DNA of 64,000 nucleotides from a phage, in sequence record PX880100.1, one strand, 5' to 3'. Each line of letters opens with the position of its first letter. The first letter of the stretch is position 1. Under the pieces are notes generated by a model, which was not told the DNA's origin, did not search any database, and was given only the letters and a program-made list of their open reading frames with translations. Shown here piece after piece: positions 31,108 through 44,119 of this stretch. The position numbers and the translations under genes are program-made.

Positions 31108-31490
31108 TAATTTAAAAGCTAGTAAATCGGTAGACGAAAGCCCAAGCATCTTACCTCGCAGCAGCGGTTGAAATACGAGGTTAAATAAGACCGCTGACCA
31201 TACTATAAAGTATAATCTATTGGAGATTATGTTTATTACACCAGCCTTTTAAGCTGACACGTAAGAACAAAGCGTCGTTGATATTACCGACACAACTTCA
31301 AAGATCAACATTTAAGTATGAAAGCTGAAAAGTTTAAAGAACTCAAACTTCTAAACTTCTAAAGCTAAAAGATGCAAAGTATTCGTTGATGATTCAAACC
31401 CTAGATCAAAGGTACATGGCTCATAAGATATGGCCTGTGGCGCCTCTAGGCTGTTTATCGGTTTACTAGTTTCACAATTTAAAAATGTAT

Positions 31491-31519
31491 TTGCTAATTT
31501 ATTAAGTTATCTGTATAAT
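31491..31519 (+). promoter_or_regulatory. early promoter
   Basis: TTGCTA, 17-bp spacer, TATAAT; approximate. Confidence 0.55.
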
Positions 31520-31549
31520 ATATTTTTAAATTGATGAAACGAGGCTATT

Positions 31550-31867
31550 ATGACTTTTCATATTTTGATTGATGATGTGCGTAATCTTCACGGAATGGAC
31601 ATTATCATTCGAACCCCAGAAGCCGCTGTAGAGTTTCTGAATAAAACTGATACCACCGGCCATTTCGTTTATATGGATAATGACTTGGCTGTAGATGGTA
31701 TGGAAGGTTATCAAATTCTTCGTTTACTCTTAGAATTTGGGCAGAGACCAAAGAAAGTGGTACTAGTAACCTCGAACCCAGTAGCTAAGCAAAATATGCG
31801 TAATGATTTGCTTGACTTAGGGTATAAAGAAAATCCCAATCGTGTTGAATATGATTGGCAGGAGTAA
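31550..31867 (+). CDS. hypothetical protein (105 aa)
   Basis: Track ORF downstream of promoter. Confidence 0.5.
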   Translation: MTFHILIDDVRNLHGMDIIIRTPEAAVEFLNKTDTTGHFVYMDNDLAVDGMEGYQILRLLLEFGQRPKKVVLVTSNPVAKQNMRNDLLDLGYKENPNRVEYDWQE

Positions 31868-33264: not shown

Positions 33265-33336
33265 GCCGTCCTAGTATAATTGGTATTATCAAGCCGTAAC
33301 TGGTGGAAGATGTAGGTTCGAATCCTACGGTCGGTA
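33265..33336 (+). ncRNA. tRNA-like element (T-arm and acceptor stem present, anticodon arm not foldable by eye)
   Basis: GTAGG-TTCGAAT-CCTAC T-arm and GCCGTCC/GGTCGGT acceptor pairing (one mismatch); no convincing anticodon stem; possible pseudo-tRNA. Confidence 0.3.
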
Positions 33337-34991: not shown

Positions 34992-35510
34992 ATGGGTGTT
35001 GATGAATTAACACAGCATCTTCTATCTAGAGGATTTGATGCAGATAAATATCATTGCTGGTTAAGTCCGGAAGGATGGCTAACAGTCCCGTTGTATGATT
35101 TCTCTGGGATGTTGAGGGGCTATCAAACTTATAATCCTTCTGCTCCAAAAGGTCATGGTAAGTATCCCTTTGAAGCTAAATATTTTACCTATTCTACTAC
35201 CCAGTGTGTATGGGGATTAGAAACTCTCAATGGAGATGAAAAAGTAGTATTGATCGCTGAATCTGTATTTAAGGCAGTTGCGTTACATAACGCTGGTTAT
35301 CCAGCCCTAGCAATGTTGGGTTCTTCTCCAGGAAAAGCGTTATTAAAGCAACTGAAATTATTACCTTTTAAATTGGTAGCTGTCGGGGATAACGATCCTG
35401 CGGGTGAAAAATTTGCTAGAAAATTAAACGGCTTTGTTTCTCCTGTAGATGTGGATGAGATGTCTACCGAAAACTTGAAAAATTTTCTTGCTATGAAGCT
35501 AAATTTCTAA
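34992..35510 (+). CDS. hypothetical protein (172 aa)
   Basis: Track ORF with GGAGA RBS. Confidence 0.5.
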   Translation: MGVDELTQHLLSRGFDADKYHCWLSPEGWLTVPLYDFSGMLRGYQTYNPSAPKGHGKYPFEAKYFTYSTTQCVWGLETLNGDEKVVLIAESVFKAVALHNAGYPALAMLGSSPGKALLKQLKLLPFKLVAVGDNDPAGEKFARKLNGFVSPVDVDEMSTENLKNFLAMKLNF

Positions 35511-35531
35511 TATAATATATCTTATAAATTC

Positions 35532-35620
35532 GGAAGAATAGCATAACGGTATTGCAGCAGATTGCTAATCTGTCGGTTTGAAATATAGCCTTGTGGGTTC
35601 GATTCCCACTTCTTCCGCCA
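35532..35620 (+). tRNA. tRNA-Ser (anticodon GCU), class II
   Basis: Acceptor GGAAGAA/TTCTTCC, 3-bp D-stem, anticodon arm GCAGA-TTGCTAA-TCTGT, long variable arm, T-arm GTGGG-TTCGATT-CCCAC, encoded CCA. Confidence 0.7.
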
Positions 35621-35626
35621 AATTCT

Positions 35627-35704
35627 GGTTCTCAAGCTCATATGGTATGAGCACCCAGCTCATAACTGGAAGGTACGTAGGTTCGAATCCTCGGGGAGCC
35701 ACCA
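35627..35704 (+). tRNA. tRNA with CAU anticodon (Met or Ile2 type)
   Basis: Acceptor GGTTCTC/GGGAGCC with G-U pairs, D-arm GCTC..GAGC, anticodon loop CTCATAA, encoded CCA; T-stem has two mismatches, so fold is uncertain. Confidence 0.5.
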
Positions 35705-35922
35705 ACTTAATTAGGGGATTACAAGTGGAATTATACATAGTTTATGTTGTGTTTATTCAAGATAGAGAATACCCTGATGAATATAAAAAAGGATATAGGT
35801 TAGCCAGAGCTACCTCTGAAGTCCAAGCTATGGATAAAGTGGCAGATTATATGATTACGGTAGAAAACGTACACTATATCGACTACCTTGAGGCCTCAAA
35901 AGTAATTGACTAAGGAGACTAT

Positions 35923-36108
35923 ATGTCCAAGTTTCAAGAACTCAAGCAAGAGCTAGAAGAATGTGCCTGCCCTGAGTGTAGGGGAATTGGTGAAAGTTCT
36001 GATGCAGAAGCAGGAGATACTTTTTGCAATATCTGGGTTTGCCCAAATTGCAATGGTACAGGTATTAATCCTAACTGTGGTATTTCTCTAGATATTGAAA
36101 GAGGGTAA
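35923..36108 (+). CDS. small zinc-ribbon-like protein (61 aa)
   Basis: Track ORF; CxxC...CxxC cysteine pairs (CACPECRG, CPNCNG); AAGGAG RBS. Confidence 0.5.
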   Translation: MSKFQELKQELEECACPECRGIGESSDAEAGDTFCNIWVCPNCNGTGINPNCGISLDIERG

Positions 36109-36209
36109 TATCTGTGAAACTAAAAGATTATTATATTGGTTGGTTTGTGGGACTAGTAGTAGGATTTTCACTAGGCTATAATATGTATCAACTAATAAAC
36201 TGATTACAC

Positions 36210-36286
36210 GGGGGTGTAATCGAATTGGCATAGGTACTGGACTTAAAATTCAGGTTTTGTGGGTTCGAATCCCACCACCCCTACCA
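36210..36286 (+). tRNA. tRNA with UAA anticodon (Leu-type anticodon, short variable arm)
   Basis: Acceptor GGGGGTG/CACCCCT, anticodon arm CTGGA-CTTAAAA-TTCAG, T-arm GTGGG-TTCGAAT-CCCAC, encoded CCA; D-arm not cleanly resolved. Confidence 0.5.
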
Positions 36287-36301
36287 AATTAAGGAAATAA
36301 G

Positions 36302-36469
36302 ATGTATAGACCTCCACCTCCGCCAACACGTCGTTCTAGAGAAGTTATCCTCATGGAATTGACTAAAAACTTCAAGGCAACTCTTGAAGATAGAGATTTA
36401 GGCACGGATGAAGACATTGATTTTATTTGTAGACTATTAAAGATGAAACTGGAGAAACAACATGGCTAA
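36302..36469 (+). CDS. hypothetical small protein (55 aa, below track cutoff)
   Basis: ATG at 36302 with AAGGAAATAAG RBS right after the tRNA; proline-rich N-terminus; overlaps the next ORF start. Confidence 0.5.
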   Translation: MYRPPPPPTRRSREVILMELTKNFKATLEDRDLGTDEDIDFICRLLKMKLEKQHG

Positions 36470-36668
36470 TCCTGAAATTACCGCACAACGTTTCATGCTT
36501 AAAGGCATGATTGCTGAAGCAGGTATGACTCAAGAGGTTGCAGACTTTCATAAGCAAATTCTTGATATTATAACTCTAGCTAAAGAGACTGGAGAAAAAG
36601 AGCACGCAGCAGCAATTATGGCTATATCTCTTATTAGTCTAGACTTGGCTGAAGAATCTGGAGTTTAG
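36462..36668 (+). CDS. hypothetical protein (68 aa)
   Basis: Track ORF. Confidence 0.5.
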   Translation: MANPEITAQRFMLKGMIAEAGMTQEVADFHKQILDIITLAKETGEKEHAAAIMAISLISLDLAEESGV

Positions 36669-36698
36669 CTCCTCCAAATAGAATTTTTAAAAATGTAC

Positions 36699-36728
36699 TT
36701 GCCTTTTGCTTTAAATTTCTGATATAAT
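36699..36728 (+). promoter_or_regulatory. early promoter
   Basis: TTGCCT, 18-bp spacer, TATAAT, then AGTTATATAAATTGATGAAGGAG; approximate. Confidence 0.55.
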
Positions 36729-36758
36729 AGTTATATAAATTGATGAAGGAGTTAACTA

Positions 36759-37034
36759 ATGCAAAATCGTGTTATAGCAACTGGTATTGAAAGTGCAATC
36801 TGTAAATCCTGGGAAGGCTGGGAAGGTGAGATTGAATGGCTTTATTTCTATGATGTAGAACTTCTGCCGGAAGTTAAAGCTAAATGTGTTGAAGCTGGAA
36901 TGGCTCCAGATGCAAAAGCTGATATTGATATTTCAATGTCTGAACTTAAAGGCCGTGTAATTACTGTTAGTGATGAGGGTGAAGAAGTTTTCGAACTTCC
37001 ATTCTCCTTAACTGTCACTCCTAAGTTCGACTAA
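36759..37034 (+). CDS. hypothetical protein (91 aa)
   Basis: Track ORF downstream of promoter. Confidence 0.5.
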   Translation: MQNRVIATGIESAICKSWEGWEGEIEWLYFYDVELLPEVKAKCVEAGMAPDAKADIDISMSELKGRVITVSDEGEEVFELPFSLTVTPKFD

Positions 37035-37070
37035 CTAATACAGCACTGAGCAAGTTCTTTAAAATTTGAC

Positions 37071-37099
37071 TTGCTCAGTGCCTTAAAACTTGGTATAAT
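37071..37099 (+). promoter_or_regulatory. early promoter feeding a tRNA block
   Basis: TTGCTC, 17-bp spacer, TATAAT; followed by a 14-bp inverted-repeat leader hairpin and tRNAs; approximate. Confidence 0.5.
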
Positions 37100-37161
37100 A
37101 GTTATCTAATTTGGAAACATATTTAAAAGTGTTTAAACTAGTATTTGAATACTTTTAAATA

Positions 37162-37267
37162 TGTTGGATTAGTATCGTAGAGGTAGCGAAGCAGACTGTA
37201 AATCTGCCGACTCGGAAGGGTCTCGGGTGGTTCGACTCCATCATCCATCATCCATCATCCAACACCA
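37162..37267 (+). tRNA. tRNA-Tyr-like (anticodon GUA), class II, atypically long; boundaries uncertain
   Basis: Perfect anticodon arm GCAGA-CTGTAAA-TCTGC, D-stem TCG/CGA, T-arm GGTGG-TTCGACT-CCATC; 3' region carries ATCCATC-ATCCATC-ATCCAAC then ACCA; GTTGGAT pairs with the last copy. Confidence 0.5.
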
Positions 37268-37274
37268 AATTTAA

Positions 37275-37351
37275 GTCCTGTTAGACAAACTGGTAAAGTC
37301 ACTACCCTTTCAAGGTAGGATTTGCGGGTTCGATCCCCGCACAGGACGCCA
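37275..37351 (+). tRNA. tRNA-Glu (anticodon UUC)
   Basis: Acceptor GTCCTGT/ACAGGAC, anticodon arm CTACC-CTTTCAA-GGTAG, T-arm GCGGG-TTCGATC-CCCGC, encoded CCA. Confidence 0.8.
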
Positions 37352-37360
37352 ATTTCTGCA

Positions 37361-37436
37361 TTCCTAGAGTGTTACTGGACAGCATGTCGGTCTCCAAAAT
37401 CGTACGGTCTAGGTTCGAGTCCTAGTAGGTTTGCCA
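37361..37436 (+). tRNA. tRNA-Trp-like (anticodon CCA), acceptor pairing unresolved
   Basis: Anticodon arm TCGGT-CTCCAAA-ATCGT and T-arm CTAGG-TTCGAGT-CCTAG with encoded CCA; spacing to neighbouring tRNAs fits, but 5' acceptor strand could not be paired by eye. Confidence 0.4.
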
Positions 37437-37442
37437 AAATTT

Positions 37443-37517
37443 GCACCTTTAGCTGAGATGGATTAGCGCTTGCCTGAAGAGCTTGAGAGGTTCGTTCGAT
37501 ACGAACAGGGTGCACCA
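37443..37517 (+). tRNA. tRNA-Phe-like (anticodon GAA)
   Basis: Acceptor GCACCTT/AGGGTGC, D-arm GCTG..TAGC, T-arm GTTCG-TTCGATA-CGAAC, encoded CCA; anticodon loop CTGAAGA but stem has two U-U mismatches. Confidence 0.55.
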
Positions 37518-37519
37518 AA

Positions 37520-37807
37520 TTGAGGGGGCTGCTGATGCATCCTGAAAACTTCTTTATTTACTGCGCTGATAAGTCGCTGAAACGTAGAATTAACAAAGTC
37601 TATCATTATCGTGCTAGTCAACAGCCTTATGTATATGCTTTTGACGGTGATCACATTCCATTAGAACAATTATCTTGTGATTACATGATATTGAAGAACT
37701 TTGACGAGACAAAGATCTCAAGCGTTCATAATCGACAGAATCCCTTAACGTGGAAATATAAGAAGAAAAAGAAAGGCATCAAATTCTTAAAAAATGTAGT
37801 TGCTTAG
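37520..37807 (+). CDS. hypothetical protein (95 aa)
   Basis: Track ORF starting 3 nt after the tRNA; TTG start. Confidence 0.45.
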   Translation: MRGLLMHPENFFIYCADKSLKRRINKVYHYRASQQPYVYAFDGDHIPLEQLSCDYMILKNFDETKISSVHNRQNPLTWKYKKKKKGIKFLKNVVA

Positions 37808-37828
37808 TTTCCAAAAGTTCTGTATAAT
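37800..37828 (+). promoter_or_regulatory. PN25-type early promoter
   Basis: TTGCTT, 17-bp spacer, TATAAT, then AATTACATAAATTGAACTGGAG; approximate. Confidence 0.55.
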
Positions 37829-37857
37829 AATTACATAAATTGAACTGGAGAAGCAAC

Positions 37858-38082
37858 ATGACAGAACAAGAATTGAATGAACGTAAGCTGGTAATGCTCC
37901 GCTTACTAAACATTTTCTCTGGTATGGATGGGGGTATTGACTTTGTTCATCTACGTTCTTTTGTAGAAGAAGCAGAAGGTGAATCTATCACTAAAATCCT
38001 TAAACATATGGGTTTACTATTAGATGCTGCTGGTGTAGCAACGGAATATAACCTCGAAGATCTACCGGAGCGTATTAAATGA
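37858..38082 (+). CDS. hypothetical protein (75 aa)
   Basis: ATG at 37858 with GGAG RBS; track lists an extended frame from 37840. Confidence 0.5.
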   Translation: MTEQELNERKLVMLRLLNIFSGMDGGIDFVHLRSFVEEAEGESITKILKHMGLLLDAAGVATEYNLEDLPERIK

Positions 38083-38267
38083 AGAAGCCAAAAGCTAAAT
38101 TAGTTAAGTTCGACTGTTGTGACACAGAAATCTTATTCACTAAGTTTGGTGAATTTAAGATGTGTGAATGTGGAACATGTGGTTATGATCATGGTGATGG
38201 ATATTATTGCAGGACTCTTGGACCAGCAAATCTAATCCACTTTTCATGGCCGGAAGATAAAGAATAA
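38079..38267 (+). CDS. small zinc-ribbon-like protein (62 aa)
   Basis: Track ORF; cysteine clusters FDCCDTE and CECGTCGYDHGDGYYC; 4-nt overlap with upstream gene. Confidence 0.5.
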   Translation: MKKPKAKLVKFDCCDTEILFTKFGEFKMCECGTCGYDHGDGYYCRTLGPANLIHFSWPEDKE

Positions 38268-38269
38268 TT

Positions 38270-38344
38270 GCATCCTTGTCCGAGTGGCTTAGGTGACGGT
38301 CTGCAAAATCGTCTAGGTTGGTTCAATTCCAGCAGGGTGCTCCA
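38270..38344 (+). tRNA. tRNA-Cys (anticodon GCA)
   Basis: Acceptor GCATCCT/AGGGTGC, anticodon arm ACGGT-CTGCAAA-ATCGT, T-arm GTTGG-TTCAATT-CCAGC, encoded CCA. Confidence 0.7.
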
Positions 38345-38350
38345 AATTCA

Positions 38351-38433
38351 GGGTCGTTAGCCAAGCGGTTTGGCGGTGGACTGTTAATCCATGTCGAAAG
38401 ACAACGTAGGTTCGAATCCTACACGGCCCGCCA
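38351..38433 (+). tRNA. tRNA-Asn (anticodon GUU) with an enlarged (~13-nt) variable region
   Basis: Acceptor GGGTCGT/ACGGCCC, D-arm GCCA..TGGC, anticodon arm GTGGA-CTGTTAA-TCCAT, T-arm GTAGG-TTCGAAT-CCTAC, encoded CCA. Confidence 0.65.
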
Positions 38434-38535
38434 AATTCTGTGTAGAGTTAAGTAAACCGGTAGCCAACCAGCTATCATTGCTGACATCGAATTCAGCCAC
38501 AGATACCATTTTCATTAATAACTGAGGAAACAAGC

Positions 38536-38721
38536 ATGTCCAAGAATGTAATTGCGCAGCTAGAAGTTCATCGTGATAGCACTATCAACAATATTGAAGT
38601 TGAGAAGAAATACATCGAAGAACTTAAACATGATATACTAGTAAGTCTCAACCGTCTTAATGTACGAAAAGAGTTTCTTAAAGAACTTAATGCAGCTATT
38701 GAAAAACTCAAAGCTGAGTAA
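38536..38721 (+). CDS. hypothetical protein (61 aa)
   Basis: Track ORF with GAGGAAAC RBS. Confidence 0.5.
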   Translation: MSKNVIAQLEVHRDSTINNIEVEKKYIEELKHDILVSLNRLNVRKEFLKELNAAIEKLKAE

Positions 38722-38730
38722 ATGAATTAT

Positions 38731-38807
38731 GCGACCGGGGCTGGCTTGGTAATGGTACTCCCCTGTCACGGGAGGGAATGTGGGTTCAAATCCCATCGGT
38801 CGCGCCA
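38731..38807 (+). tRNA. tRNA-Asp (anticodon GUC)
   Basis: Acceptor GCGACCG/CGGTCGC, anticodon arm CTCCC-CTGTCAC-GGGAG, T-arm GTGGG-TTCAAAT-CCCAT, encoded CCA. Confidence 0.8.
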
Positions 38808-38824
38808 AATAAGGTAGGTTAGCT

Positions 38825-38983
38825 ATGGAACGTAGAGAGTTTACTCCAGAAGAGATAGAGCAGATAAAAGAATCTGCTACGAAAAATGCTAGAATATCTC
38901 TGTCACTAGAAGGTATCATTATTAGTGATGTAAACTTTGAAAAAATCAAAGCCATAGCTGATGAACTGGAAAAAGTAATTTAA
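38825..38983 (+). CDS. hypothetical small protein (52 aa, below track cutoff)
   Basis: ATG at 38825 with AAGGTAGG RBS between two tRNAs; acidic helical peptide. Confidence 0.45.
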   Translation: MERREFTPEEIEQIKESATKNARISLSLEGIIISDVNFEKIKAIADELEKVI

Positions 38984-38984
38984 T

Positions 38985-39060
38985 ACATCCATAGCTCAAT
39001 GGTTAGAGCTACCGCCTCTTAAGCGGAGGGTTCTAGGTTCAAGTCCTAGTGGGTGTACCA
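38985..39060 (+). tRNA. tRNA-Lys (anticodon CUU)
   Basis: Acceptor ACATCCA/TGGGTGT, D-arm GCTC..GAGC, anticodon arm CCGC-CTCTTAA-GCGG, T-arm CTAGG-TTCAAGT-CCTAG, encoded CCA. Confidence 0.65.
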
Positions 39061-39086
39061 AACTAAACTAGCACGAGAAATATACT

Positions 39087-39434
39087 ATGCGTAATGCTAA
39101 AGAAGAGTTGTTACTTGCCTTAAAAAATACTAATTCTGAAGTTAAGTGTATTAAAATAGAATTCGGGTATTATGGGGACAAAAAAGTTTGGGTATTACCT
39201 CTGGGGTATACAGAAGAAGATATTGGGGATTTTCTTAATAACCTAGACTTTGAGTATGATTCTGGTTATGGTGGACAACTACTTTATGGTAATGTATGGT
39301 TTGCCGATGGAACCTGGCTAGAACGTGGGGAATATGATGGAGCTGAGTGGTGGGAATACAAGGCTACTCCAGCAATTCCAGAGGAATGCCGAACAATTAA
39401 TGGTGAAGTAGATAATACTTTAAGGTTAAACTAA
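39087..39434 (+). CDS. hypothetical protein (115 aa)
   Basis: Track ORF. Confidence 0.5.
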   Translation: MRNAKEELLLALKNTNSEVKCIKIEFGYYGDKKVWVLPLGYTEEDIGDFLNNLDFEYDSGYGGQLLYGNVWFADGTWLERGEYDGAEWWEYKATPAIPEECRTINGEVDNTLRLN

Positions 39435-39438
39435 TAAA

Positions 39439-39538
39439 ATTTCAGTGCAGAACACGGAGCTAGCAATTCGGAAGTGCTGACTCATGATAAGCTGCCTATG
39501 TACTTGCAAAGCGGTCGTGTCCAAGACTCGGACTCTTG
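39439..39538 (+). ncRNA. structured ORF-free element closed by a ~10-bp long-range stem
   Basis: TTCAGTGCAG at the 5' end pairs with CTTGCACTGAA at the 3' end, enclosing internal hairpins (GTCC-AAGACTC-GGAC); no ORF. Confidence 0.35.
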
Positions 39539-39556
39539 CACTGAAAACAATCAAAC

Positions 39557-39684
39557 ATTCTAGCGTGGTTGATGGGGAAACCAGCTTGGCTAGGGCAGAA
39601 GCTCGTTCGATTCGAGTGAAAGAATGGTTCTCGTAAGTCCGCACAAGTGATAATAGGTTCGAGTCCTGTCTAGAATGACACTAT
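39557..39684 (+). ncRNA. tRNA-like element of atypical length (~128 nt)
   Basis: ATTCTAG...CTAGAAT acceptor-like pairing, D-arm-like GGTT-GATGGGGA-AACC, two T-arm-like motifs; too long for a canonical tRNA. Confidence 0.3.
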
Positions 39685-39826
39685 AAAGTTTACTTATTAT
39701 GTAGGTTCCGATAGATCGGCGGGTCTATTCTGGCATTTAAGAGAGGTCTCGCAAACTTCTTTGTCAGCCGTGGGGTTGGTAGCCTCCAGGTGGCCTACAC
39801 AATAAGTAAATTTATTAAAAATTCAT

Positions 39827-39855
39827 TTGCTATTTCTCTTAATTATCTGTATAAT
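39827..39855 (+). promoter_or_regulatory. PN25-type early promoter
   Basis: TTGCTA, 17-bp spacer, TATAAT, then ATATTTTATAAAGTGAAGAGAAGG; approximate. Confidence 0.55.
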
Positions 39856-39887
39856 ATATTTTATAAAGTGAAGAGAAGGAAAGCAAA

Positions 39888-40046
39888 ATGAAACACAAGA
39901 TAGCTCAAGTTTTTATGGCATTATGGTGTATGCCAATAGCTATAACAGCATTTAATCTAGATACTTTTACTATAGAAGAAAAATGTATCGGATTAGTTAG
40001 TGGCTTTAGTATGCTTGGCTTATCTTTGTTGTGGTTGAAGAAATAA
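39888..40046 (+). CDS. hypothetical small membrane peptide (52 aa, below track cutoff)
   Basis: ATG at 39888 with GAAGGAAAG RBS after the promoter; hydrophobic sequence; stops 4 nt before tRNA-Pro. Confidence 0.5.
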   Translation: MKHKIAQVFMALWCMPIAITAFNLDTFTIEEKCIGLVSGFSMLGLSLLWLKK

Positions 40047-40050
40047 TATT

Positions 40051-40128
40051 CTCCGTGTAGCTCAGTTTGGCCAGAGCGTTTCGTTTGGGGCGATAGGGTC
40101 GGGGGTTCAAATCCTCCCACGGAGACCA
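40051..40128 (+). tRNA. tRNA-Pro (anticodon UGG)
   Basis: Acceptor CTCCGTG/CACGGAG, D-arm GCTC..GAGC, anticodon loop TTTGGGG (stem with one U-U), T-arm GGGGG-TTCAAAT-CCTCC, encoded CCA. Confidence 0.7.
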
Positions 40129-40134
40129 AACAAT

Positions 40135-40212
40135 TGCGGGTTAGATCTCTGGTAGAGATCGCTAGTCTCATAAGCTAGAAAGAGGTAGGTTCGATTCCTG
40201 CACCCGCTTCCA
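40135..40212 (+). tRNA. tRNA with CAU anticodon (Met-type; T-T mismatch at pair 1-72)
   Basis: Acceptor TGCGGGT/ACCCGCT, D-arm GATC..GATC, anticodon arm CTAGT-CTCATAA-GCTAG, T-arm GTAGG-TTCGATT-CCTGC, encoded CCA. Confidence 0.6.
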
Positions 40213-40232
40213 TTTTAATAGAGGATTTCGAA

Positions 40233-40400
40233 ATGAAAGTATTTCGATTAGTAGTAAGTGACAAACGCTTAGGTAAGAATACATCAAAATCCTTACTTGC
40301 TCATTATGGTAGAAATTGGGATGAAGTAATGGCAGAGTTTAGTACTAATCACTCTTACTTGAAAGTTCACTCTATTAAAGAAGTATACAATGGTTACTAA
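40233..40400 (+). CDS. hypothetical small protein (55 aa, below track cutoff)
   Basis: ATG at 40233 with GAGGA RBS between tRNAs. Confidence 0.45.
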   Translation: MKVFRLVVSDKRLGKNTSKSLLAHYGRNWDEVMAEFSTNHSYLKVHSIKEVYNGY

Positions 40401-40401
40401 T

Positions 40402-40480
40402 AGATCGCTAGCTCAATAGGTTTAGTAGCATCCGACTTTTAATCGGAAGGTTCTGGGTTCAAGTCCCAGGCGATCTACCA
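40402..40480 (+). tRNA. tRNA-Lys (anticodon UUU)
   Basis: Acceptor AGATCGC/GCGATCT, anticodon arm TCCGA-CTTTTAA-TCGGA, T-arm CTGGG-TTCAAGT-CCCAG, encoded CCA. Confidence 0.8.
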
Positions 40481-40484
40481 ATTT

Positions 40485-40558
40485 GCTCGGTTAGTTTAAT
40501 GGGAGAACCCCGTCTTTACATGGCGGTTGAGATAGTTCGATTCTATCACCGGGTACCA
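40485..40558 (+). tRNA. tRNA-Val (anticodon UAC)
   Basis: Acceptor GCTCGGT/ACCGGGT, anticodon arm CCGTC-TTTACAT-GGCGG, T-arm GATAG-TTCGATT-CTATC, encoded CCA. Confidence 0.8.
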
Positions 40559-40577
40559 ATTAACTCAAAATAAGGAA

Positions 40578-40937
40578 TTGCAAATGCAATTATCAAGCAA
40601 GATTCAAGGTTATTTCGGTCATGTGACAATGGAGTTCGCTATCTCTAAAGGTTGGGACTTCGAACAAGATTTAGCTGAGTTCTACAAAGATATTGATCTG
40701 AACGTACCGTACATGGGACTTTCTACTGGTCAGGAGATCACAGAAGCCGATGTATTCAAGGCAAGTCAAGGTGAGGTAACACCTAGTTTTGCCGAGTTCT
40801 GGTTAGGCATTACGTTAAAAGAAGATGCACCAGATAGTGGTGTACTAATGTCTAGTATGCACTCTGGAAGTTCCGATTACCTTTTCATTAGCGATGTTAA
40901 GGAAATACAAGAAGTCTGCAAAAATGTACTTGCTTGA
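40578..40937 (+). CDS. hypothetical protein (119 aa)
   Basis: Track ORF (TTG start; in-frame ATG at 40584) with AAGGAATTG RBS. Confidence 0.5.
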   Translation: MQMQLSSKIQGYFGHVTMEFAISKGWDFEQDLAEFYKDIDLNVPYMGLSTGQEITEADVFKASQGEVTPSFAEFWLGITLKEDAPDSGVLMSSMHSGSSDYLFISDVKEIQEVCKNVLA

Positions 40938-40957
40938 TGCTTAATTTCTTGTTATAA
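40929..40957 (+). promoter_or_regulatory. PN25-type early promoter feeding an ORF-free leader and tRNAs
   Basis: TTGCTT, 17-bp spacer, TATAAT, then ATTTATATAAATTGATGAGGAG; approximate. Confidence 0.55.
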
Positions 40958-41195
40958 TATTTATATAAATTGATGAGGAGAAATCCTCATCATAGTTCAC
41001 TAAGGTATTAGCTCGACCTAGGACTGGCTGCCAAAAAGCACGATCCCTACGATTCGGGAGAAGTTCTAGATTGGTCCACTAGATTCAGCGGCAACTGAAT
41101 AGTGTATTGGGTTTGCGAGATGACGTAGTTCCTTCCGCTCTAAGCGAAGGTGCTGTAGTTACGCCGAGCTAATAGCCTTAGTAAACTAAAGAATT

Positions 41196-41274
41196 TGGGG
41201 AATGGGTCTGCATGGAGTGGACACCTCGCTTGCACCGAGGACATCAGAACGGTTCGATTCCGTTATTCTCCACC
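41196..41274 (+). tRNA. tRNA-Ala (anticodon UGC)
   Basis: Acceptor GGGGAAT/ATTCTCC, D-arm GTCT..GGAC, anticodon arm CCTCG-CTTGCAC-CGAGG, T-arm AACGG-TTCGATT-CCGTT, encoded CCA. Confidence 0.8.
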
Positions 41275-41279
41275 AAATA

Positions 41280-41356
41280 CGCGTGATTGATGGAATTGGC
41301 ATACATACCGTCCTTAGAAGTCGGGTTTTGAGGGTTCGAATCCCTTGTCACGCACC
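41280..41356 (+). tRNA. tRNA with UAG anticodon (Leu-type anticodon, short variable arm)
   Basis: Acceptor GCGTGAT/GTCACGC, anticodon arm CCGTC-CTTAGAA-GTCGG (one mismatch), T-arm GAGGG-TTCGAAT-CCCTT, encoded CCA. Confidence 0.5.
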
Positions 41357-41468
41357 AAATTTGATGGTCAGAGTAAATTAAACCTACTATCTCGGTTGAG
41401 CTGTTTTAATGGGTTCGAATCCCAGCGAGGCGTAACTGCCTGGTGTGATAGAGGCATCATCTTATTAT

Positions 41469-41559
41469 TGGAAGAGCAAATCGAATTGGCGACGAAAACC
41501 GCTTGGAAAGTGGCTGACTGGTAAAACGGCTTGAGAGTTCAAATCTCTCCTCTTCCGCC
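41469..41559 (+). tRNA. tRNA-Ser (anticodon GGA), class II
   Basis: Acceptor GGAAGAG/CTCTTCC, anticodon arm ACCGC-TTGGAAA-GTGGC, long variable arm, T-arm GAGAG-TTCAAAT-CTCTC, encoded CCA. Confidence 0.7.
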
Positions 41560-41571
41560 AAACAATTTATA

Positions 41572-41666
41572 TGGTAGGTCAATCCAATGGCTGGCGTGGG
41601 ACTCCGACTTGAAATCGGTTGATCGTAGTGATACGGTGTAAGGGTTCGATCCCCTTACCTACCTCC
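41572..41666 (+). tRNA. tRNA-Ser (anticodon UGA), class II
   Basis: Acceptor GGTAGGT/ACCTACC, anticodon arm TCCGA-CTTGAAA-TCGGT, long variable arm, T-arm AAGGG-TTCGATC-CCCTT, encoded CCA. Confidence 0.7.
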
Positions 41667-42032
41667 AAATCTTGAAGTATGCCGGAATCGGTAGACGGGG
41701 CTGCCTAAAAGGTTTATAGGGAACATCCACTCCCTGCAACATACCCCATAAAGCGGCTGAGATAAATGGTCTATCTCGTGAAGGTTCAAGTCCTTCTGCT
41801 TCTTGATACATCAATGGCTCAAAGTGTAACGGCGCTATTTGATGCGCTTAGTAAGACTTCCCCGACATGCGTTCGGGAGTAAGCTGCTAAGGCTAGAGTA
41901 GAAGAGTTTCTGAGAGCCGCCACAATTGAAGATTCGTACTCGTCTTGAGCTGCGTGCAATAGGAGATAACTTGATTAGTATTCTAGAACATGCTAATTGA
42001 GGAAGGTTTCGCTAACCCTGCGAGTTTTCAAT

Positions 42033-42109
42033 TGTGGCTATATCATAATTGGTTAATGATCCTGATTGTGAATCAGGCCTATGTGGATTCGAATTCCACT
42101 AGCCACCCC
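42033..42109 (+). tRNA. tRNA-His (anticodon GUG)
   Basis: Acceptor GTGGCTA/TAGCCAC, D-arm TCAT..ATGA, anticodon arm CCTGA-TTGTGAA-TCAGG, T-arm GTGGA-TTCGAAT-TCCAC, encoded CCA. Confidence 0.85.
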
Positions 42110-42135
42110 AAATTAACTTAAATAGGAAATAAAAT

Positions 42136-42330
42136 ATGGCTGATTTCTGCAAACAATGCTCCATTGATATGTGGGGCAGAGATACTGGTGATCTTTCTGG
42201 TTTGATTACAGAAGCTGAAGTTAAAGAAGGCTACGGTGCTGTTGTGATTTGCGAGGGATGCGGAGTTATTCGAGTAGATCATGAAGGCAAACGTTTGGAA
42301 GAATCTGAGCCAACAACAATTTTTCCGTAG
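42136..42330 (+). CDS. small zinc-ribbon-like protein (64 aa)
   Basis: Track ORF; CKQCS...CEGCG cysteine pairs; AGGAAATAAA RBS. Confidence 0.5.
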   Translation: MADFCKQCSIDMWGRDTGDLSGLITEAEVKEGYGAVVICEGCGVIRVDHEGKRLEESEPTTIFP

Positions 42331-42342
42331 AATAAAAATTAT

Positions 42343-42418
42343 TGGGATGTAGATCAATTGGCAGATCGTCGGCCTCTGACTCCGAAGGCTCCACGTTCGA
42401 TCCGTGGCATCCCAGCCA
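42343..42418 (+). tRNA. tRNA-Gln (anticodon CUG)
   Basis: Acceptor TGGGATG/CATCCCA, D-arm GATC..GATC, anticodon loop CTCTGAC, T-arm CCACG-TTCGATC-CGTGG, encoded CCA. Confidence 0.7.
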
Positions 42419-42424
42419 AATAAT

Positions 42425-42500
42425 TGGAGAGTAGTGTAACGGTTAGCACAACGGCCTTTGACTCCGTTAATGGTAGGTTCGATTCCTCCTTCTCCAGCCA
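42425..42500 (+). tRNA. tRNA-Gln (anticodon UUG)
   Basis: Acceptor TGGAGAG/TTCTCCA, D-arm GTGT..GCAC, anticodon loop CTTTGAC, T-arm GTAGG-TTCGATT-CCTCC, encoded CCA. Confidence 0.7.
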
Positions 42501-42508
42501 AATAATAA

Positions 42509-42584
42509 GCGGTTAAGCACACGGGTTGTGTCGCAGGCCTTCCAAGCCTCGCTGAGTAGGGTTCGATTCCCTCTAGCCGCTCCA
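42509..42584 (+). tRNA. tRNA-Gly (anticodon UCC)
   Basis: Acceptor GCGGTTA/TAGCCGC, anticodon arm AGGC-CTTCCAA-GCCT, T-loop TTCGATT, encoded CCA. Confidence 0.65.
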
Positions 42585-42600
42585 ACTTTAAGGGGACATT

Positions 42601-42822
42601 ATGCACGTTTTTGAGTTTCGTAATAAAAGTACCGATAAACGAGTTATTGTTATCGGGGAAACATACCGAGCATACGAACAAACTGACGGCTCTGTTATCC
42701 TGAATGACGAAAAAGGAGGTTTTAGCTTTTATCCCAAAGAAACTTACGAAGAATTTCGTACAAAGTTTCTTCTACCAGACTGGCTAGAAGTAGCGCAGCA
42801 ACGAGAACCCGAAGATGGCTGA
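42601..42822 (+). CDS. hypothetical protein (73 aa)
   Basis: Track ORF with AAGGGGAC RBS. Confidence 0.5.
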   Translation: MHVFEFRNKSTDKRVIVIGETYRAYEQTDGSVILNDEKGGFSFYPKETYEEFRTKFLLPDWLEVAQQREPEDG

Positions 42823-42979
42823 TAACCTAAAAGTCAAGATCGATAAACAAAAGAAACGTGTCGAAGTAGAGATTGGTGAAGAACGTGTAGCCTTCACCTT
42901 TGAATTTCTACAACAAATGGCAATGACAGTTATGACTGATAAGTCTCCTGTTATTGAAAAAGAAATCCCGTTGAAATAA
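42815..42979 (+). CDS. hypothetical small protein (54 aa, below track cutoff)
   Basis: ATG at 42815 overlapping the upstream stop; ends 10 nt before tRNA-Thr. Confidence 0.4.
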   Translation: MADNLKVKIDKQKKRVEVEIGEERVAFTFEFLQQMAMTVMTDKSPVIEKEIPLK

Positions 42980-42988
42980 CGGGCTATC

Positions 42989-43063
42989 GCTCCTAAAGCA
43001 TTGTTGGCGATGCAGTTGCCTTGTAAGCATCTGAACCGGGTTCGATTCCTGGTGGGAGCACCA
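42989..43063 (+). tRNA. tRNA-Thr (anticodon UGU)
   Basis: Acceptor GCTCCTA/TGGGAGC, D-arm GCAT..ATGC, anticodon loop CTTGTAA, T-arm CCGGG-TTCGATT-CCTGG, encoded CCA. Confidence 0.75.
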
Positions 43064-43078
43064 AATTTAAAAATTCAT

Positions 43079-43107
43079 TTGCTTTCTCTCTTATTTCTTG
43101 TTATAAT
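43079..43107 (+). promoter_or_regulatory. PN25-type early promoter
   Basis: TTGCTT, 17-bp spacer, TATAAT, then ATTTATATAAATTAATGAGAGGG; approximate. Confidence 0.55.
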
Positions 43108-43137
43108 ATTTATATAAATTAATGAGAGGGAAGCCAA

Positions 43138-43431
43138 ATGAAACGTTATCTTTCTGTTGTGTTCCAAACTGGTGGTCAGCGCTATACTTACGAATTTCCT
43201 GGCTCTTGGAAAGTCAAAGAAGGTGATCAAGTAGTTGTATTAACACCGCGTGACGGGTATAAGGTAGTAACGGTTAAGCAAGTATTTTCAAAAGACTATG
43301 AACCGTCTAAGTCTATTAACTATAAGATGATTCATGGTGTAGTTCGTCAAGTACCACGAGCGGAAGTCGAAATCAAAGTAGATAAAGATGATAAACTTAA
43401 ATATACCTCTTGCATAGACGAGTTGCTATAA
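43138..43431 (+). CDS. hypothetical protein (97 aa)
   Basis: Track ORF downstream of promoter. Confidence 0.5.
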   Translation: MKRYLSVVFQTGGQRYTYEFPGSWKVKEGDQVVVLTPRDGYKVVTVKQVFSKDYEPSKSINYKMIHGVVRQVPRAEVEIKVDKDDKLKYTSCIDELL

Positions 43432-43637
43432 TGAGGATTACTTTTACAGAAAAGATTATGAGTAATGGTGTTATGATCATTACCGCATGGGACAGTAATC
43501 AGTGGTGTAGTGTTTCAGGTATTAAGCCTGAAGAACAAACACTAGAAAATATCTCAAAGATTAAGCGAAGAATGGCAGAACGTGCACGACTTCCAGGTGC
43601 ACCTAGAAATGGCAAACGTTCTGCTGTGAAATGTTAA
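43431..43637 (+). CDS. hypothetical protein (68 aa)
   Basis: ATG at 43431 overlapping the upstream TAA (TAATG); track lists a longer frame from 43410. Confidence 0.45.
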   Translation: MRITFTEKIMSNGVMIITAWDSNQWCSVSGIKPEEQTLENISKIKRRMAERARLPGAPRNGKRSAVKC

Positions 43638-43638
43638 T

Positions 43639-43715
43639 GCTTCGGTAGCTTAGCGATCTAAAGCACTCGGCTGATAACCGAGAGATCGGGGGTTTAAATC
43701 CCTCCCGGAGTACCA
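43639..43715 (+). tRNA. tRNA-Ile (anticodon GAU)
   Basis: Acceptor GCTTCGG/CCGGAGT, D-arm GCTT..AAGC, anticodon arm CTCGG-CTGATAA-CCGAG, T-arm GGGGG-TTTAAAT-CCCTC, encoded CCA. Confidence 0.8.
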
Positions 43716-43811
43716 AATTTAGGAATTAAGACTATGCGTCCAGGAAAGTTTAGAAAAGCTAATTGGTCTAAAGAGTATAAAGAATACTTACTTAGTCTAG
43801 TAAAACATAAC

Positions 43812-43887
43812 AGTTAGTTGGCAGAGTGGTTATGCACCTCCTTCATACGGAGCGACTACAGTGGTTCAAATCCACTACTAACTACCA
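43812..43887 (+). tRNA. tRNA-Met (anticodon CAU)
   Basis: Acceptor AGTTAGT/ACTAACT, anticodon loop TTCATAC, T-arm AGTGG-TTCAAAT-CCACT, encoded CCA. Confidence 0.7.
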
Positions 43888-43924
43888 TTAAAACAGCTAG
43901 AGATAGCTAAATATAGGAGCAATT

Positions 43925-44119
43925 ATGTTAACAGTTAAAATAATGTCCACTGATGGTGGTGAGCAGATTCATGTTGGTAAAAGCGTAGGGTTTAACCCCA
44001 GAAATAAAAGCATAGCTATTTCTGGAATAGATCAAGCAATCTTCTTAAAAGAAGATGAAGTAGCATACGTTATGAACCAAACCGGTAAGACAGTTTCTGT
44101 ATATCGTGGTAAACTATAG
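43925..44119 (+). CDS. hypothetical protein (64 aa)
   Basis: Track ORF with AGGAG RBS. Confidence 0.5.
   Translation: MLTVKIMSTDGGEQIHVGKSVGFNPRNKSIAISGIDQAIFLKEDEVAYVMNQTGKTVSVYRGKL

What the first reader, a model, noticed from the sequence alone, without database searches (positions are those of the whole stretch)
36210..41356. Two tRNAs with leucine-type anticodons (UAA, UAG) but short variable arms
By manual folding, 36210..36286 (anticodon loop CTTAAAA) and 41280..41356 (loop CTTAGAA) have standard acceptor and T-arms with encoded CCA, but only a 4-5-nt variable region; bacterial tRNA-Leu is normally class II with a long variable arm. No class II tRNA-Leu was found. Either these are atypical leucine-decoding tRNAs, tRNAs of another identity with unusual anticodons, or my anticodon-loop register is wrong.
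Basis: seen in the sequence. Interest (0 to 1): 0.45.

Follow-up and report, generated by a model that had tools for sequence, protein, structure and literature searches.

The report
Arm-less leucine tRNAs of T5-like phage
The two genes are real leucine tRNAs of a T5-like coliphage that lack the long extra arm of E. coli leucine tRNAs; identical genes are already annotated as tRNA-Leu in related phage genomes, so the finding is correct but largely ordinary.

Summary
The window is a T5-like phage (98.4% identical to Escherichia phage AKFV33) with a cluster of 24-26 tRNA genes. ARAGORN and Rfam place tRNA-Leu(UAA) at 36210-36286 and tRNA-Leu(UAG) at 41281-41357. Each is 77 nt with an encoded CCA and a 5-nt variable loop (GUUUU). 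The window has no class II tRNA-Leu.

Both tRNAs look like E. coli tRNA-Leu with 8-10 nt of the variable arm removed. They keep every sequence element reported to define E. coli LeuRS identity: A73, A15-U48, G18G19, A20a, and the U8:A14 and U54:A58 tertiary pairs. They lack the Ala mark (G3:U70) and the Ser marks (long arm, G73).

Nineteen distinct 77-nt homologues from unrelated phages align without gaps and covary strongly. In the same phage clusters tRNA-Ser and tRNA-Tyr keep their long arms. UUA and CUA are frequent in the phage genes and align to Leu in a distant relative.

Phage T5 itself carries an 85-nt class II tRNA-Leu(UAG) in the same slot. Class I tRNA-Leu(UAA) is also the ordinary chromosomal form in many Actinomycetota.

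Verdict: these are genuine class I leucine tRNAs. Charging by enterobacterial LeuRS is inferred, not shown.

The parts
36210..36286 (+). tRNA-Leu(UAA), class I, 77 nt. Anticodon at 36244-36246, anticodon loop 36242-36248, variable loop GUUUU 36254-36258, discriminator A73 at 36283, encoded CCA 36284-36286.
   Evidence: ARAGORN; Rfam RF00005 57.4 bits; 100% identical to the annotated tRNA-Leu of phage AKFV33 and others.
41281..41357 (+). tRNA-Leu(UAG), class I, 77 nt. Anticodon at 41315-41317, anticodon loop 41313-41319, U30.U40 mismatch at 41311/41321, variable loop GUUUU 41325-41329, A73 at 41354, CCA 41355-41357.
   Evidence: ARAGORN; Rfam 47.5 bits; 100% identical to the annotated tRNA-Leu of BUCT632, Kenya-K15 and Bf23.
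41197..41275 (+). tRNA-Ala(UGC), 5 nt upstream of tRNA-Leu(UAG). This is the Ala-Leu pair that is syntenic with T5 tRNAA-tRNAL1. Context only.
   Evidence: ARAGORN; T5 annotation; alignment A3; synteny blast.
35715..36279 (+). Segment carrying two small ORFs and nearly all of tRNA-Leu(UAA). It has no counterpart in T5, where the HNH endonuclease gene hegA sits instead. Context only.
   Evidence: blastn of the window against T5; T5 annotation.
35532..35620 (+). tRNA-Ser(GCU), 89 nt, long variable arm retained. Internal comparator.
   Evidence: ARAGORN bracket output.
37167..37250 (+). tRNA-Tyr(GUA), 84 nt, long variable arm retained. Internal comparator.
   Evidence: ARAGORN bracket output; Rfam 32.6 bits.
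41573..41667 (+). tRNA-Ser(UGA), 95 nt, long variable arm retained. Internal comparator.
   Evidence: ARAGORN bracket output.

Best explanation
These are two functional phage-encoded leucine tRNAs of the class I (short variable loop) type. They lie in the tRNA-gene cluster of a T5-like phage. The CCA end is encoded in both genes. I infer that they are expressed with that cluster and matured by host enzymes. I also infer that host LeuRS charges them with leucine. That enzyme reads A73 and the D-loop/T-loop/variable-region core (A15-U48, G18G19, A20a, U8:A14, U54:A58), and it does not read the anticodon or the long arm. The tRNAs would then decode UUA/UUG (anticodon UAA) and CUA/CUG, possibly more of the CUN box (anticodon UAG). 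These codons are frequent in this AT-rich phage, and in E. coli they are served by single-copy, low-abundance tRNAs. The arm is missing because enterobacterial LeuRS does not need it. SerRS and TyrRS do use the arm, which explains why tRNA-Ser and tRNA-Tyr keep it. Shown here: the structure, the identity elements, conservation and covariation, the Leu-specific loss of the arm, codon usage, and interchangeability with a class II allele. Inferred: expression, actual leucylation and use in translation.
For: 1) Two independent tools agree on the gene, the anticodon and the 5-nt variable loop.
2) Aligned with E. coli leuZ, leuW and leuV, the only length difference is an 8-10-nt gap in the variable arm. 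The D arm matches (UGAUGGAAUUGGCAUAC against UGGCGAAAUUGGUAGAC). Identity is about 60% over the 77 shared columns, compared with 62-75% among the E. coli isoacceptors themselves.
3) The E. coli leucine identity set given in the Giege review (PMC9976931) is A73, A15-U48, G18G19, A20a and the D/T tertiary pairs, with anticodon and long arm dispensable. All of these are present in both tRNAs. They are also invariant in 19 distinct 77-nt phage homologues, although A15 and G18G19 were imposed by the search pattern on the UAA members drawn from the IMG/VR scan.
4) On those 19 sequences the class I cloverleaf is 97.6% paired, and 17 of 20 pairs show changes on both sides. The covariation score is 0.891, against 0.257 in shuffles and 0.11-0.20 when the partners are slid.
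5) Arm loss is specific to Leu. In 120 IMG/VR loci, Ser is 24/24 long and Tyr 14/15 long. Leu(UAG) is 12 short and 9 long, and Leu(CAA) is 5 short and 6 long. The same holds inside the window.
6) In the window's ORFs CUA is 17.7 per 1000 codons (20% of Leu) and UUA is 21.6 per 1000 (24.5% of Leu). In E. coli K-12 the figures are roughly 4 and 14 per 1000 (standard codon-usage tables, quoted from memory).
7) UUA and CUA positions align to Leu in homologues from Vibrio phage X1 at 51.5% and 49.4%. Other Leu codons give 42-60%, and Ile/Val/Met/Phe codons give 7-27%.
8) Type phage T5 has an 85-nt class II tRNA-Leu(UAG) in the same Ala-Leu slot, so the two architectures replace each other among close relatives. 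About 165 records carry the class I allele and about 54 the class II allele.
9) Hundreds of GenBank records annotate these genes as tRNA-Leu.
Against: No aminoacylation or expression data for the class I alleles were found in the searchable literature. The experimental notes in the T5 record concern its class II tRNA-Leu. Fan et al. 2019 (PMC6614811) report that E. coli LeuRS did not charge the Streptomyces type I tRNA-Leu(CAA). That tRNA has C48 and so lacks the A15-U48 pair, which the phage tRNAs have, but the result still shows that a short variable loop is not automatically accepted. tRNA-Leu(UAG) has a U.U mismatch in its anticodon stem and A37 instead of G37. Some annotation pipelines call it tRNA-OTHER, tRNA-Pseudo or tRNA-Xle. 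The UAA members drawn from the IMG/VR scan were selected with a pattern that fixes AATTGG and the T loop, so only A20a, U48 and A73 are unbiased for them.
Confidence: 0.85

Rival explanations
1. Counter-defence variant. The tRNAs are still leucine tRNAs, but loss of the long arm (and perhaps the conserved U30.U40 mismatch) was selected because it makes them poor substrates for host or competitor tRNA nucleases that recognise class II tRNAs or host tRNA-Leu. Translation of UUR/CUN codons would then continue when host tRNA-Leu is cleaved. This adds to the best explanation rather than excluding it.
For: [quoted passage not shown] Phage tRNA-Thr variants resist P2-OLD through a shortened anticodon stem (PMC12445682). 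The U30.U40 mismatch of tRNA-Leu(UAG) is kept in PVP-SE1 and Felixounavirus KhF1 while the neighbouring pair covaries. The same cluster contains a tRNA-Asn with an added variable hairpin, so the variable region is being remodelled in both directions.
Against: None of the defence-nuclease papers read reports one that acts specifically on tRNA-Leu or through its arm. tRNA-Leu is only one of many tRNAs cleaved by retron-Kva2. T5 itself carries a class II tRNA-Leu(UAG). Class I tRNA-Leu is also the normal chromosomal form in many Actinomycetota, where no such argument applies. Neutral loss of a dispensable arm explains the data equally well.
Confidence: 0.1
2. tRNAs of another amino-acid identity that carry Leu anticodons. 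They would mistranslate or recode UUR/CUN codons in the infected cell.
For: The short variable loop is typical of non-Leu tRNAs in Enterobacteria. Some pipelines label the UAG gene tRNA-OTHER, tRNA-Xle or tRNA-Pseudo.
Against: Most synthetases read the anticodon, and these anticodons fit only Leu. Among the anticodon-independent enzymes, AlaRS needs G3:U70, but both tRNAs have G3-C70. SerRS needs the long arm and G73, but both have a short loop and A73. Within the window each tRNA's nearest relative is the other Leu tRNA, and both align to E. coli tRNA-Leu. UUA and CUA positions are conserved as Leu in distant homologues at the same rate as other Leu codons.
Confidence: 0.03
3. Non-functional relics or tRNA-like elements, for example decaying genes or mere targets of the homing endonucleases that populate this region.
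For: The region is mosaic. T5 has HNH endonuclease genes (hegA, hegC) at or next to both Leu slots. The cluster also contains tRNA-like RNAs without clear function, such as 33265-33336 and the misc_RNA features annotated in T5.
Against: Both genes are intact cloverleaves with an encoded CCA and Rfam scores well above threshold. About 324 records (UAA) and about 165 records (UAG) hold copies at 95% identity or more. Strong compensatory covariation across unrelated phages indicates selection on the folded RNA.
Confidence: 0.02

Closest known systems
tRNA-Leu genes annotated in published T5-like phages (Tequintavirus and other Demerecviridae, e.g. AKFV33, Bf23, DaisyDussoix, vB_Sen_TUMS_E3)
   Same: The sequences are identical or at least 95% identical, lie in the same positions in the tRNA cluster, and are annotated tRNA-Leu(taa) and tRNA-Leu(tag).
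   Different: There is no sequence difference. The records do not comment on the short variable loop, and a few call the UAG gene tRNA-OTHER, tRNA-Xle or tRNA-Pseudo.
Phage T5 tRNAL1(UAG), T5t10 in NC_005859
   Same: Same anticodon, same slot directly after tRNA-Ala, A73, a similar D arm, and A37.
   Different: The T5 gene is 85 nt with a long variable arm (class II). It is followed by the HNH endonuclease gene hegC, and its 3' half does not align with the window gene. The T5 record notes that it can be converted into an amber suppressor; no such note was seen for the class I alleles.
E. coli class II tRNA-Leu (leuZ UAA, leuW UAG, leuQPV CAG)
   Same: Anticodons, A73, 3-bp D stem with position 13 facing A22, D loop AAUUGG-A-, A15 and U48, and T loop. 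Identity is about 60% over shared columns.
   Different: The E. coli tRNAs have 8-10 more nucleotides forming the variable stem-loop. leuW has G37 where the phage tRNA has A37. The phage UAG tRNA has a U30.U40 mismatch.
Type I tRNA-Leu of Actinomycetota (S. coelicolor tRNA-Leu(CAA), Fan et al. 2019, PMC6614811; chromosomal tRNA-Leu(UAA) of Nocardia, Mycobacterium, Rhodococcus, Arthrobacter and others)
   Same: A 74-78-nt tRNA-Leu with a 5-nt variable loop, A73, the same 3-bp D stem and an AAUUGGCAGA-type D loop.
   Different: These are host chromosomal genes charged by actinobacterial LeuRS. The S. coelicolor CAA species has C48 and was not charged by E. coli LeuRS. The phage tRNAs have U48 and must work with enterobacterial LeuRS.
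Class I tRNA-Leu in other phage groups (Felixounavirus KhF1, three genes; Seunavirus PVP-SE1; Pseudomonas phage ZC03; Vibrio phage X1; many IMG/VR contigs)
   Same: The same 77-79-nt architecture and invariant identity positions, with anticodons UAA, UAG and CAA. PVP-SE1 and KhF1 share the U30.U40 mismatch of the UAG species.
   Different: The phage families and hosts differ. Some clusters mix class I and class II tRNA-Leu genes.
Animal mitochondrial tRNA-Leu
   Same: A short variable loop, and identity carried by A73 and A14 (review PMC9976931).
   Different: These are organellar, AT-rich and structurally relaxed tRNAs charged by a dedicated mitochondrial LeuRS. There is no sequence relationship.

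Membership tests
tRNA (Rfam RF00005) | Score at or above the gathering threshold (29 bits) over the full cloverleaf model | tested here: met
   57.4 and 47.5 bits, model positions 1-71 of 71; ARAGORN agrees.
Leucine tRNA (by decoding) | Anticodon NAA or NAG at positions 34-36 of a 7-nt loop with U33 | tested here: met
   Loops CUUAAAA (UAA) and CUUAGAA (UAG).
Substrate of E. coli-type LeuRS (identity set as summarised in PMC9976931) | Discriminator A73 | tested here: met
   A at 36283 and 41354; invariant in 19 of 19 homologues.
Substrate of E. coli-type LeuRS (identity set as summarised in PMC9976931) | A15-U48 Levitt pair, G18G19 and A20a in the D loop | tested here: met
   D loop AAUUGGCAU and variable loop GUUUU in both tRNAs. 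Alignment columns 15, 18, 19, 21 and 49 are invariant in A2; for the UAA members drawn from the IMG/VR scan, columns 15, 18 and 19 were fixed by the search pattern.
Substrate of E. coli-type LeuRS (identity set as summarised in PMC9976931) | Tertiary pairs U8:A14, G18:U55, G19:C56, U54:A58 | tested here: met
   U8, A14 and T loop UUCGAAU are present in both; the bases are invariant in A2. The pairing itself is inferred from sequence.
Substrate of E. coli-type LeuRS (identity set as summarised in PMC9976931) | Actual leucylation by enterobacterial LeuRS | not testable with these tools
   This needs an aminoacylation assay. No published data on the class I alleles were found.
Canonical bacterial class II tRNA-Leu | Long variable arm (10 nt or more, forming a stem-loop) | tested here: not met
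   5-nt variable loop. There is an 8-10-nt gap relative to leuZ, leuW and leuV.
Type I (class I) tRNA-Leu | Leu anticodon with a 4-5-nt variable loop and A73 | tested here: met
   the same architecture appears in Actinomycetota chromosomal genes.
Alanine identity | G3:U70 wobble pair | tested here: not met
   Both tRNAs have G3-C70.
Serine identity | Long variable arm and G73 | tested here: not met
   Short loop and A73.
Nonsense-suppressor tRNA | Anticodon CUA, UUA or UCA (complementary to a stop codon) | tested here: not met
   Read 5' to 3', the anticodons are UAA and UAG. They pair with the sense codons UUR and CUN, not with stop codons.

The most novel reading that the evidence does not exclude
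Phages that infect Enterobacteria have repeatedly dropped the class II arm from tRNA-Leu, added one to tRNA-Asn and reshaped that of tRNA-Tyr, as part of an arms race with host tRNA nucleases. On this reading the arm-less tRNA-Leu is a nuclease-resistant replacement for host tRNA-Leu rather than only a codon-usage supplement, and a host or competitor nuclease that targets tRNA-Leu would remain to be found.
Probability: 0.1. Interest if true: 0.6.

Novelty: already known. Interest (0 to 1): 0.25.

Why it matters
The practical point concerns annotation. Short tRNA-Leu genes in phages of Enterobacteria are real and should not be labelled pseudo, OTHER or Xle.

The biological point is a natural experiment. 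Across many unrelated phage tRNA clusters only tRNA-Leu loses the long arm, while tRNA-Ser and tRNA-Tyr keep it. That matches the in vitro rule that bacterial LeuRS ignores the arm while SerRS and TyrRS use it.

It also sets up a simple test. A published report says E. coli LeuRS charges only type II tRNA-Leu, and coliphage tRNAs with an intact A15-U48 pair would be a natural counter-example if they are charged. None of this changes how phage tRNA function is understood unless the counter-defence reading proves true.

Tried and rejected
1) Wrong anticodon register or a hidden long arm. Rejected: ARAGORN and Rfam give the same fold.

2) Suppressor tRNAs. Rejected: UAA and UAG are the anticodons, not the codons read.

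3) Derivation from another class I tRNA in the cluster. Rejected: each tRNA's nearest neighbour is the other Leu tRNA (58 of 73 aligned bases), and the next best matches score far lower.

4) A simple deletion of the arm from the T5 class II gene. Not supported: only the Ala gene and the 5' half of the Leu gene align (about 86%). The 3' half and the downstream DNA differ, which looks like cassette replacement next to an HNH endonuclease gene.

5) Promoter and terminator scan of the cluster. Counts did not exceed the shuffled expectation, so it was uninformative.

6) Literature searches for an explicit description of arm-less T5-family tRNA-Leu, for their charging, or for a defence nuclease specific to tRNA-Leu. 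Nothing was found. Scherberg and Weiss 1970 (PMC283332) is not held in the library, and the other early T5 tRNA papers (e.g. Hunt 1980) did not turn up in the searches.

7) The idea that class I tRNA-Leu is phage-specific.

Full report
WHAT THE WINDOW IS. A megablast of 35500-44000 finds Escherichia phage vB_EcoS_AKFV33 at 98.4% identity over 100% of the query, and about 600 other T5-like phages of Salmonella, Escherichia and Klebsiella. Relatives fetched for annotation are classified in Demerecviridae, genus Tequintavirus. ARAGORN finds 24 tRNA genes on the + strand between 33839 and 43887. Rfam finds the same genes apart from tRNA-Ala and tRNA-Ser(UGA), and adds two more hits: 35627-35701 with anticodon CAU, and a tRNA-like element at 33265-33336.

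THE OBSERVATION. Both are 77 nt. The drawn cloverleaves and bracket strings show:
- a 7-bp acceptor stem;
- a 3-bp D stem with an 11-nt loop (G13, AAUUGGCAU, A22);
- a 5-bp anticodon stem;
- the loops CUUAAAA and CUUAGAA;
- a 5-nt variable loop GUUUU;
- a 5-bp T stem with loop UUCGAAU;
- discriminator A73 and an encoded CCA.

Rfam's tRNA model aligns both end to end in the same register, at 57.4 and 47.5 bits against a gathering score of 29. tRNA-Leu(UAG) has one U.U mismatch, at positions 30 and 40. [quoted passage not shown] The two tRNA-Ser (89 and 95 nt) and tRNA-Tyr (84 nt) do have stem-loop variable arms.

WHAT THEY ARE RELATED TO. I aligned both tRNAs with E. coli K-12 leuZ (UAA), leuW (UAG) and leuV (CAG), fetched from NC_000913.3. 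The only length difference is an 8-10-nt gap in the variable arm. The D arm is almost the same, and identity over the 77 shared columns is 57-62%. The E. coli isoacceptors are 62-75% identical to each other. Within the window each Leu tRNA's closest relative is the other one (58 of 73 aligned bases), well ahead of any other tRNA. They look like tRNA-Leu bodies without the arm, not another tRNA with a changed anticodon.

IDENTITY ELEMENTS. The Giege review (PMC9976931) summarises E. coli leucine identity as follows:
- A73 is crucial.
- The A15-U48 pair, G18G19 and A20a in the D loop, and the D/T tertiary pairs are essential.
- Minimal tRNA-Leu molecules lacking both the anticodon arm and the variable arm are still charged.

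Both window tRNAs have A73, A14, A15, G18, G19, A20a, U48 and U54-A58. Neither has G3:U70 (the Ala mark), nor G73 with a long arm (the Ser marks). The other synthetases mostly read the anticodon, and these anticodons fit only Leu.

One published result argues for caution. Fan et al. 2019 (PMC6614811) found that E. coli LeuRS did not charge the Streptomyces type I tRNA-Leu(CAA). That tRNA has C48, so it lacks the A15-U48 pair that the phage tRNAs keep.

CONSERVATION AND COVARIATION. tRNA-Leu(UAA) has matches in 390 phage records, 324 of them at 95% identity or more. tRNA-Leu(UAG) has matches in 566 records, 165 of them at 95% or more. Nearly all are annotated tRNA-Leu, with a few labelled tRNA-OTHER, tRNA-Xle or tRNA-Pseudo-TAG.

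More distant 77-79-nt homologues occur in several other phage groups:
- Felixounavirus KhF1, with three class I Leu genes (UAG, CAA, UAA);
- Seunavirus PVP-SE1, with one class I and one class II gene;
- Pseudomonas phage ZC03, also with one of each;
- the Vibrio T5-like phage X1, with two 77-nt genes.

I scanned IMG/VR with a pattern that accepts either class: AATTGG, then 12-14 nt, CTTAAAA, then 13-40 nt, GGTTCRANTCC. The spacing was bimodal, with 11 class I and 109 class II genes and nothing in between. ARAGORN on those loci found further class I Leu genes with UAG and CAA anticodons that the pattern had not selected.

Nineteen distinct 77-nt sequences align without a single gap. A15, G18, G19, A20a, A22, U48, the T loop and A73 are invariant; for the UAA members drawn from the IMG/VR scan, A15, G18, G19 and part of the T arm (G52-G53, T loop, C61-C62) were fixed by the search pattern. 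On that alignment the class I cloverleaf is 97.6% paired, and 17 of 20 pairs show changes on both sides. The covariation score is 0.891, against 0.257 in shuffles (0 of 500 reach it) and 0.11-0.20 when the partners are slid by 1-3 columns. This is a selected, folded tRNA family.

WHY ONLY LEU. In the 120 IMG/VR loci, 24 of 24 tRNA-Ser and 14 of 15 tRNA-Tyr keep long arms. tRNA-Leu(UAG) is 12 short and 9 long, and tRNA-Leu(CAA) is 5 short and 6 long. In the loci that hold a class I Leu gene, all 13 Ser and all 3 Tyr genes are long. The window shows the same pattern. Of the three class II families, the arm is dispensable for the cognate synthetase only in Leu, which is exactly what established knowledge of the synthetases predicts.

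DECODING ROLE. In 57 non-overlapping ORFs of at least 100 aa (13,158 codons), UUA is 21.6 per 1000 codons (24.5% of Leu) and CUA is 17.7 per 1000 (20.1% of Leu). The window is 39% G+C. In E. coli K-12 CUA is roughly 4 per 1000 and UUA roughly 14 per 1000, and each is served by a single-copy tRNA gene. The codon frequencies are from standard tables quoted from memory; the leuZ, leuW and leuQPV genes themselves were seen.

To check that these codons mean Leu, I compared 15 window ORFs by tblastn with the Vibrio T5-like phage X1 (24-57% protein identity). UUA and CUA positions align to Leu in 51.5% and 49.4% of cases. Other Leu codons give 42-60%, and Ile, Val, Met and Phe codons give 7-27%. A tRNA that inserted something else at these codons would be harmful.

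RELATION TO T5 ITSELF. The RefSeq record of T5 annotates a single tRNA-Leu in its tRNA-gene region. This is tRNAL1(UAG), 85 nt and class II, directly after tRNA-Ala, which is the same slot as the window's class I gene. Its note says that changing the anticodon converts it into an amber suppressor. The Ala genes and the 5' halves of the two Leu genes align at about 86% identity. Beyond that the sequences diverge, and T5 carries the HNH endonuclease gene hegC.

The window's tRNA-Leu(UAA) lies in a 565-bp segment (35715-36279) that T5 replaces with another HNH endonuclease gene, hegA. The T5-type class II allele occurs in about 54 phage records at 90% identity or more, and the class I allele in about 165. 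Phage fp01 combines the class I UAA gene with the class II UAG gene. The two architectures are therefore interchangeable among close relatives in a mosaic region rich in homing endonucleases.

HOW UNUSUAL THIS IS. Most hits are Actinomycetota chromosomes (Nocardia, Mycobacterium, Rhodococcus, Arthrobacter, Gordonia and others). ARAGORN calls them tRNA-Leu(taa) of 74-78 nt, and 105 of the 120 loci hold no other tRNA. Class I tRNA-Leu is therefore an ordinary form in that phylum, as Fan et al. described for Streptomyces, and in animal mitochondria.

The T5-family genes themselves are already deposited and annotated. I found no paper that remarks on their missing arm or tests their charging; Scherberg and Weiss 1970 (PMC283332) is not in the library.

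MECHANISM AND RIVALS. Best explanation (confidence 0.85): these are genuine class I leucine tRNAs, charged by host LeuRS through A73 and the tertiary core. They supply decoding of UUR and CUN codons that the phage uses heavily. The arm was lost because nothing in the enterobacterial system requires it.

A possible added layer (about 0.1) is counter-defence. [quoted passage not shown] Phage tRNA-Thr variants escape P2-OLD through a weakened anticodon stem. The U30.U40 mismatch of tRNA-Leu(UAG) is conserved across phage families. However, no nuclease directed at tRNA-Leu or its arm was found, and T5 itself keeps the arm.

Another identity (0.03) and non-functional relics (0.02) are contradicted by the identity elements, the codon conservation and the covariation.

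VERDICT. Novelty is low, because the genes are already annotated and the architecture is known elsewhere. What remains of interest is the untested charging by enterobacterial LeuRS and the Leu-specific pattern of arm loss across phages. Interest 0.25.

Noticed in passing
window 38351-38433: tRNA-Asn(GUU) is 83 nt, with a 12-nt variable region that contains a GUC-GAAA-GAC mini-hairpin. Asn tRNAs are normally class I. PVP-SE1 tRNA-Asn (85 nt) has a similar insertion, but the T5 and Felixounavirus KhF1 Asn tRNAs do not. This is the opposite change to the one seen in tRNA-Leu.
   Followed up: partly
window 41311 and 41321 (positions 30 and 40 of tRNA-Leu(UAG)); L128:5997-6073; L127:5997-6074: The U30.U40 mismatch in the anticodon stem is kept in PVP-SE1 and in Felixounavirus KhF1, while the neighbouring 29-41 pair changes from G-C to A-U. 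This suggests that the mismatch itself is under selection.
   Followed up: partly
window 41313-41319; alignment A2 column 38: tRNA-Leu(UAG) has A37, whereas E. coli leuW has G37, the position that carries m1G37 in CUN-reading tRNA-Leu (from general knowledge). Position 37 is A in at least 90% of the class I phage Leu tRNAs, and also in the T5 class II tRNAL1.
   Followed up: no
L130:4625-4709 (T5 record 31624-31708); T5 hegC 31022-31606 and hegA 36379-37062: Type phage T5 carries a class II 85-nt tRNA-Leu(UAG) in the same Ala-Leu slot and has no tRNA-Leu(UAA). HNH homing-endonuclease genes sit next to or in place of both Leu loci, so the tRNA-Leu polymorphism coincides with endonuclease-associated mosaic junctions.
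   Followed up: partly
window 35627-35701: A tRNA with anticodon CAU is found by Rfam (38.2 bits) but missed by ARAGORN. It is syntenic with T5 tRNA-Ile2(CAU) and is annotated tRNA-Met in NBSal003.
   Followed up: partly
window 33265-33336: A tRNA-like element (Rfam 35.5 bits) has good acceptor, D and T arms but no clean anticodon arm and no CCA. It may correspond to the tRNA-like stable RNAs of unknown function annotated in T5.
   Followed up: no
window 37167-37250: tRNA-Tyr(GUA) scores only 32.6 bits in Rfam, and ARAGORN draws its acceptor stem with two unpaired positions. Relatives label it tRNA-OTHER or tRNA-Pseudo-GTA. The T5-family tRNA-Tyr is the one reported to resist PtuAB cleavage through its variable loop.
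   Followed up: no
L133-L252 (genome-contig scan): Besides single chromosomal genes in Actinomycetota, nine of the 120 8-kb bacterial loci hold 12-32 tRNA genes each. Several of the listed contigs are from Nostoc and Calothrix. Whether these dense arrays lie in prophages was not checked.
   Followed up: no
L124:2103-2180 and neighbouring genes: One IMG/VR contig with a class I tRNA-Leu(CAA) also encodes a tRNA with anticodon CUA, which ARAGORN labels Pyl. This is a possible amber suppressor in a phage tRNA cluster.
   Followed up: no
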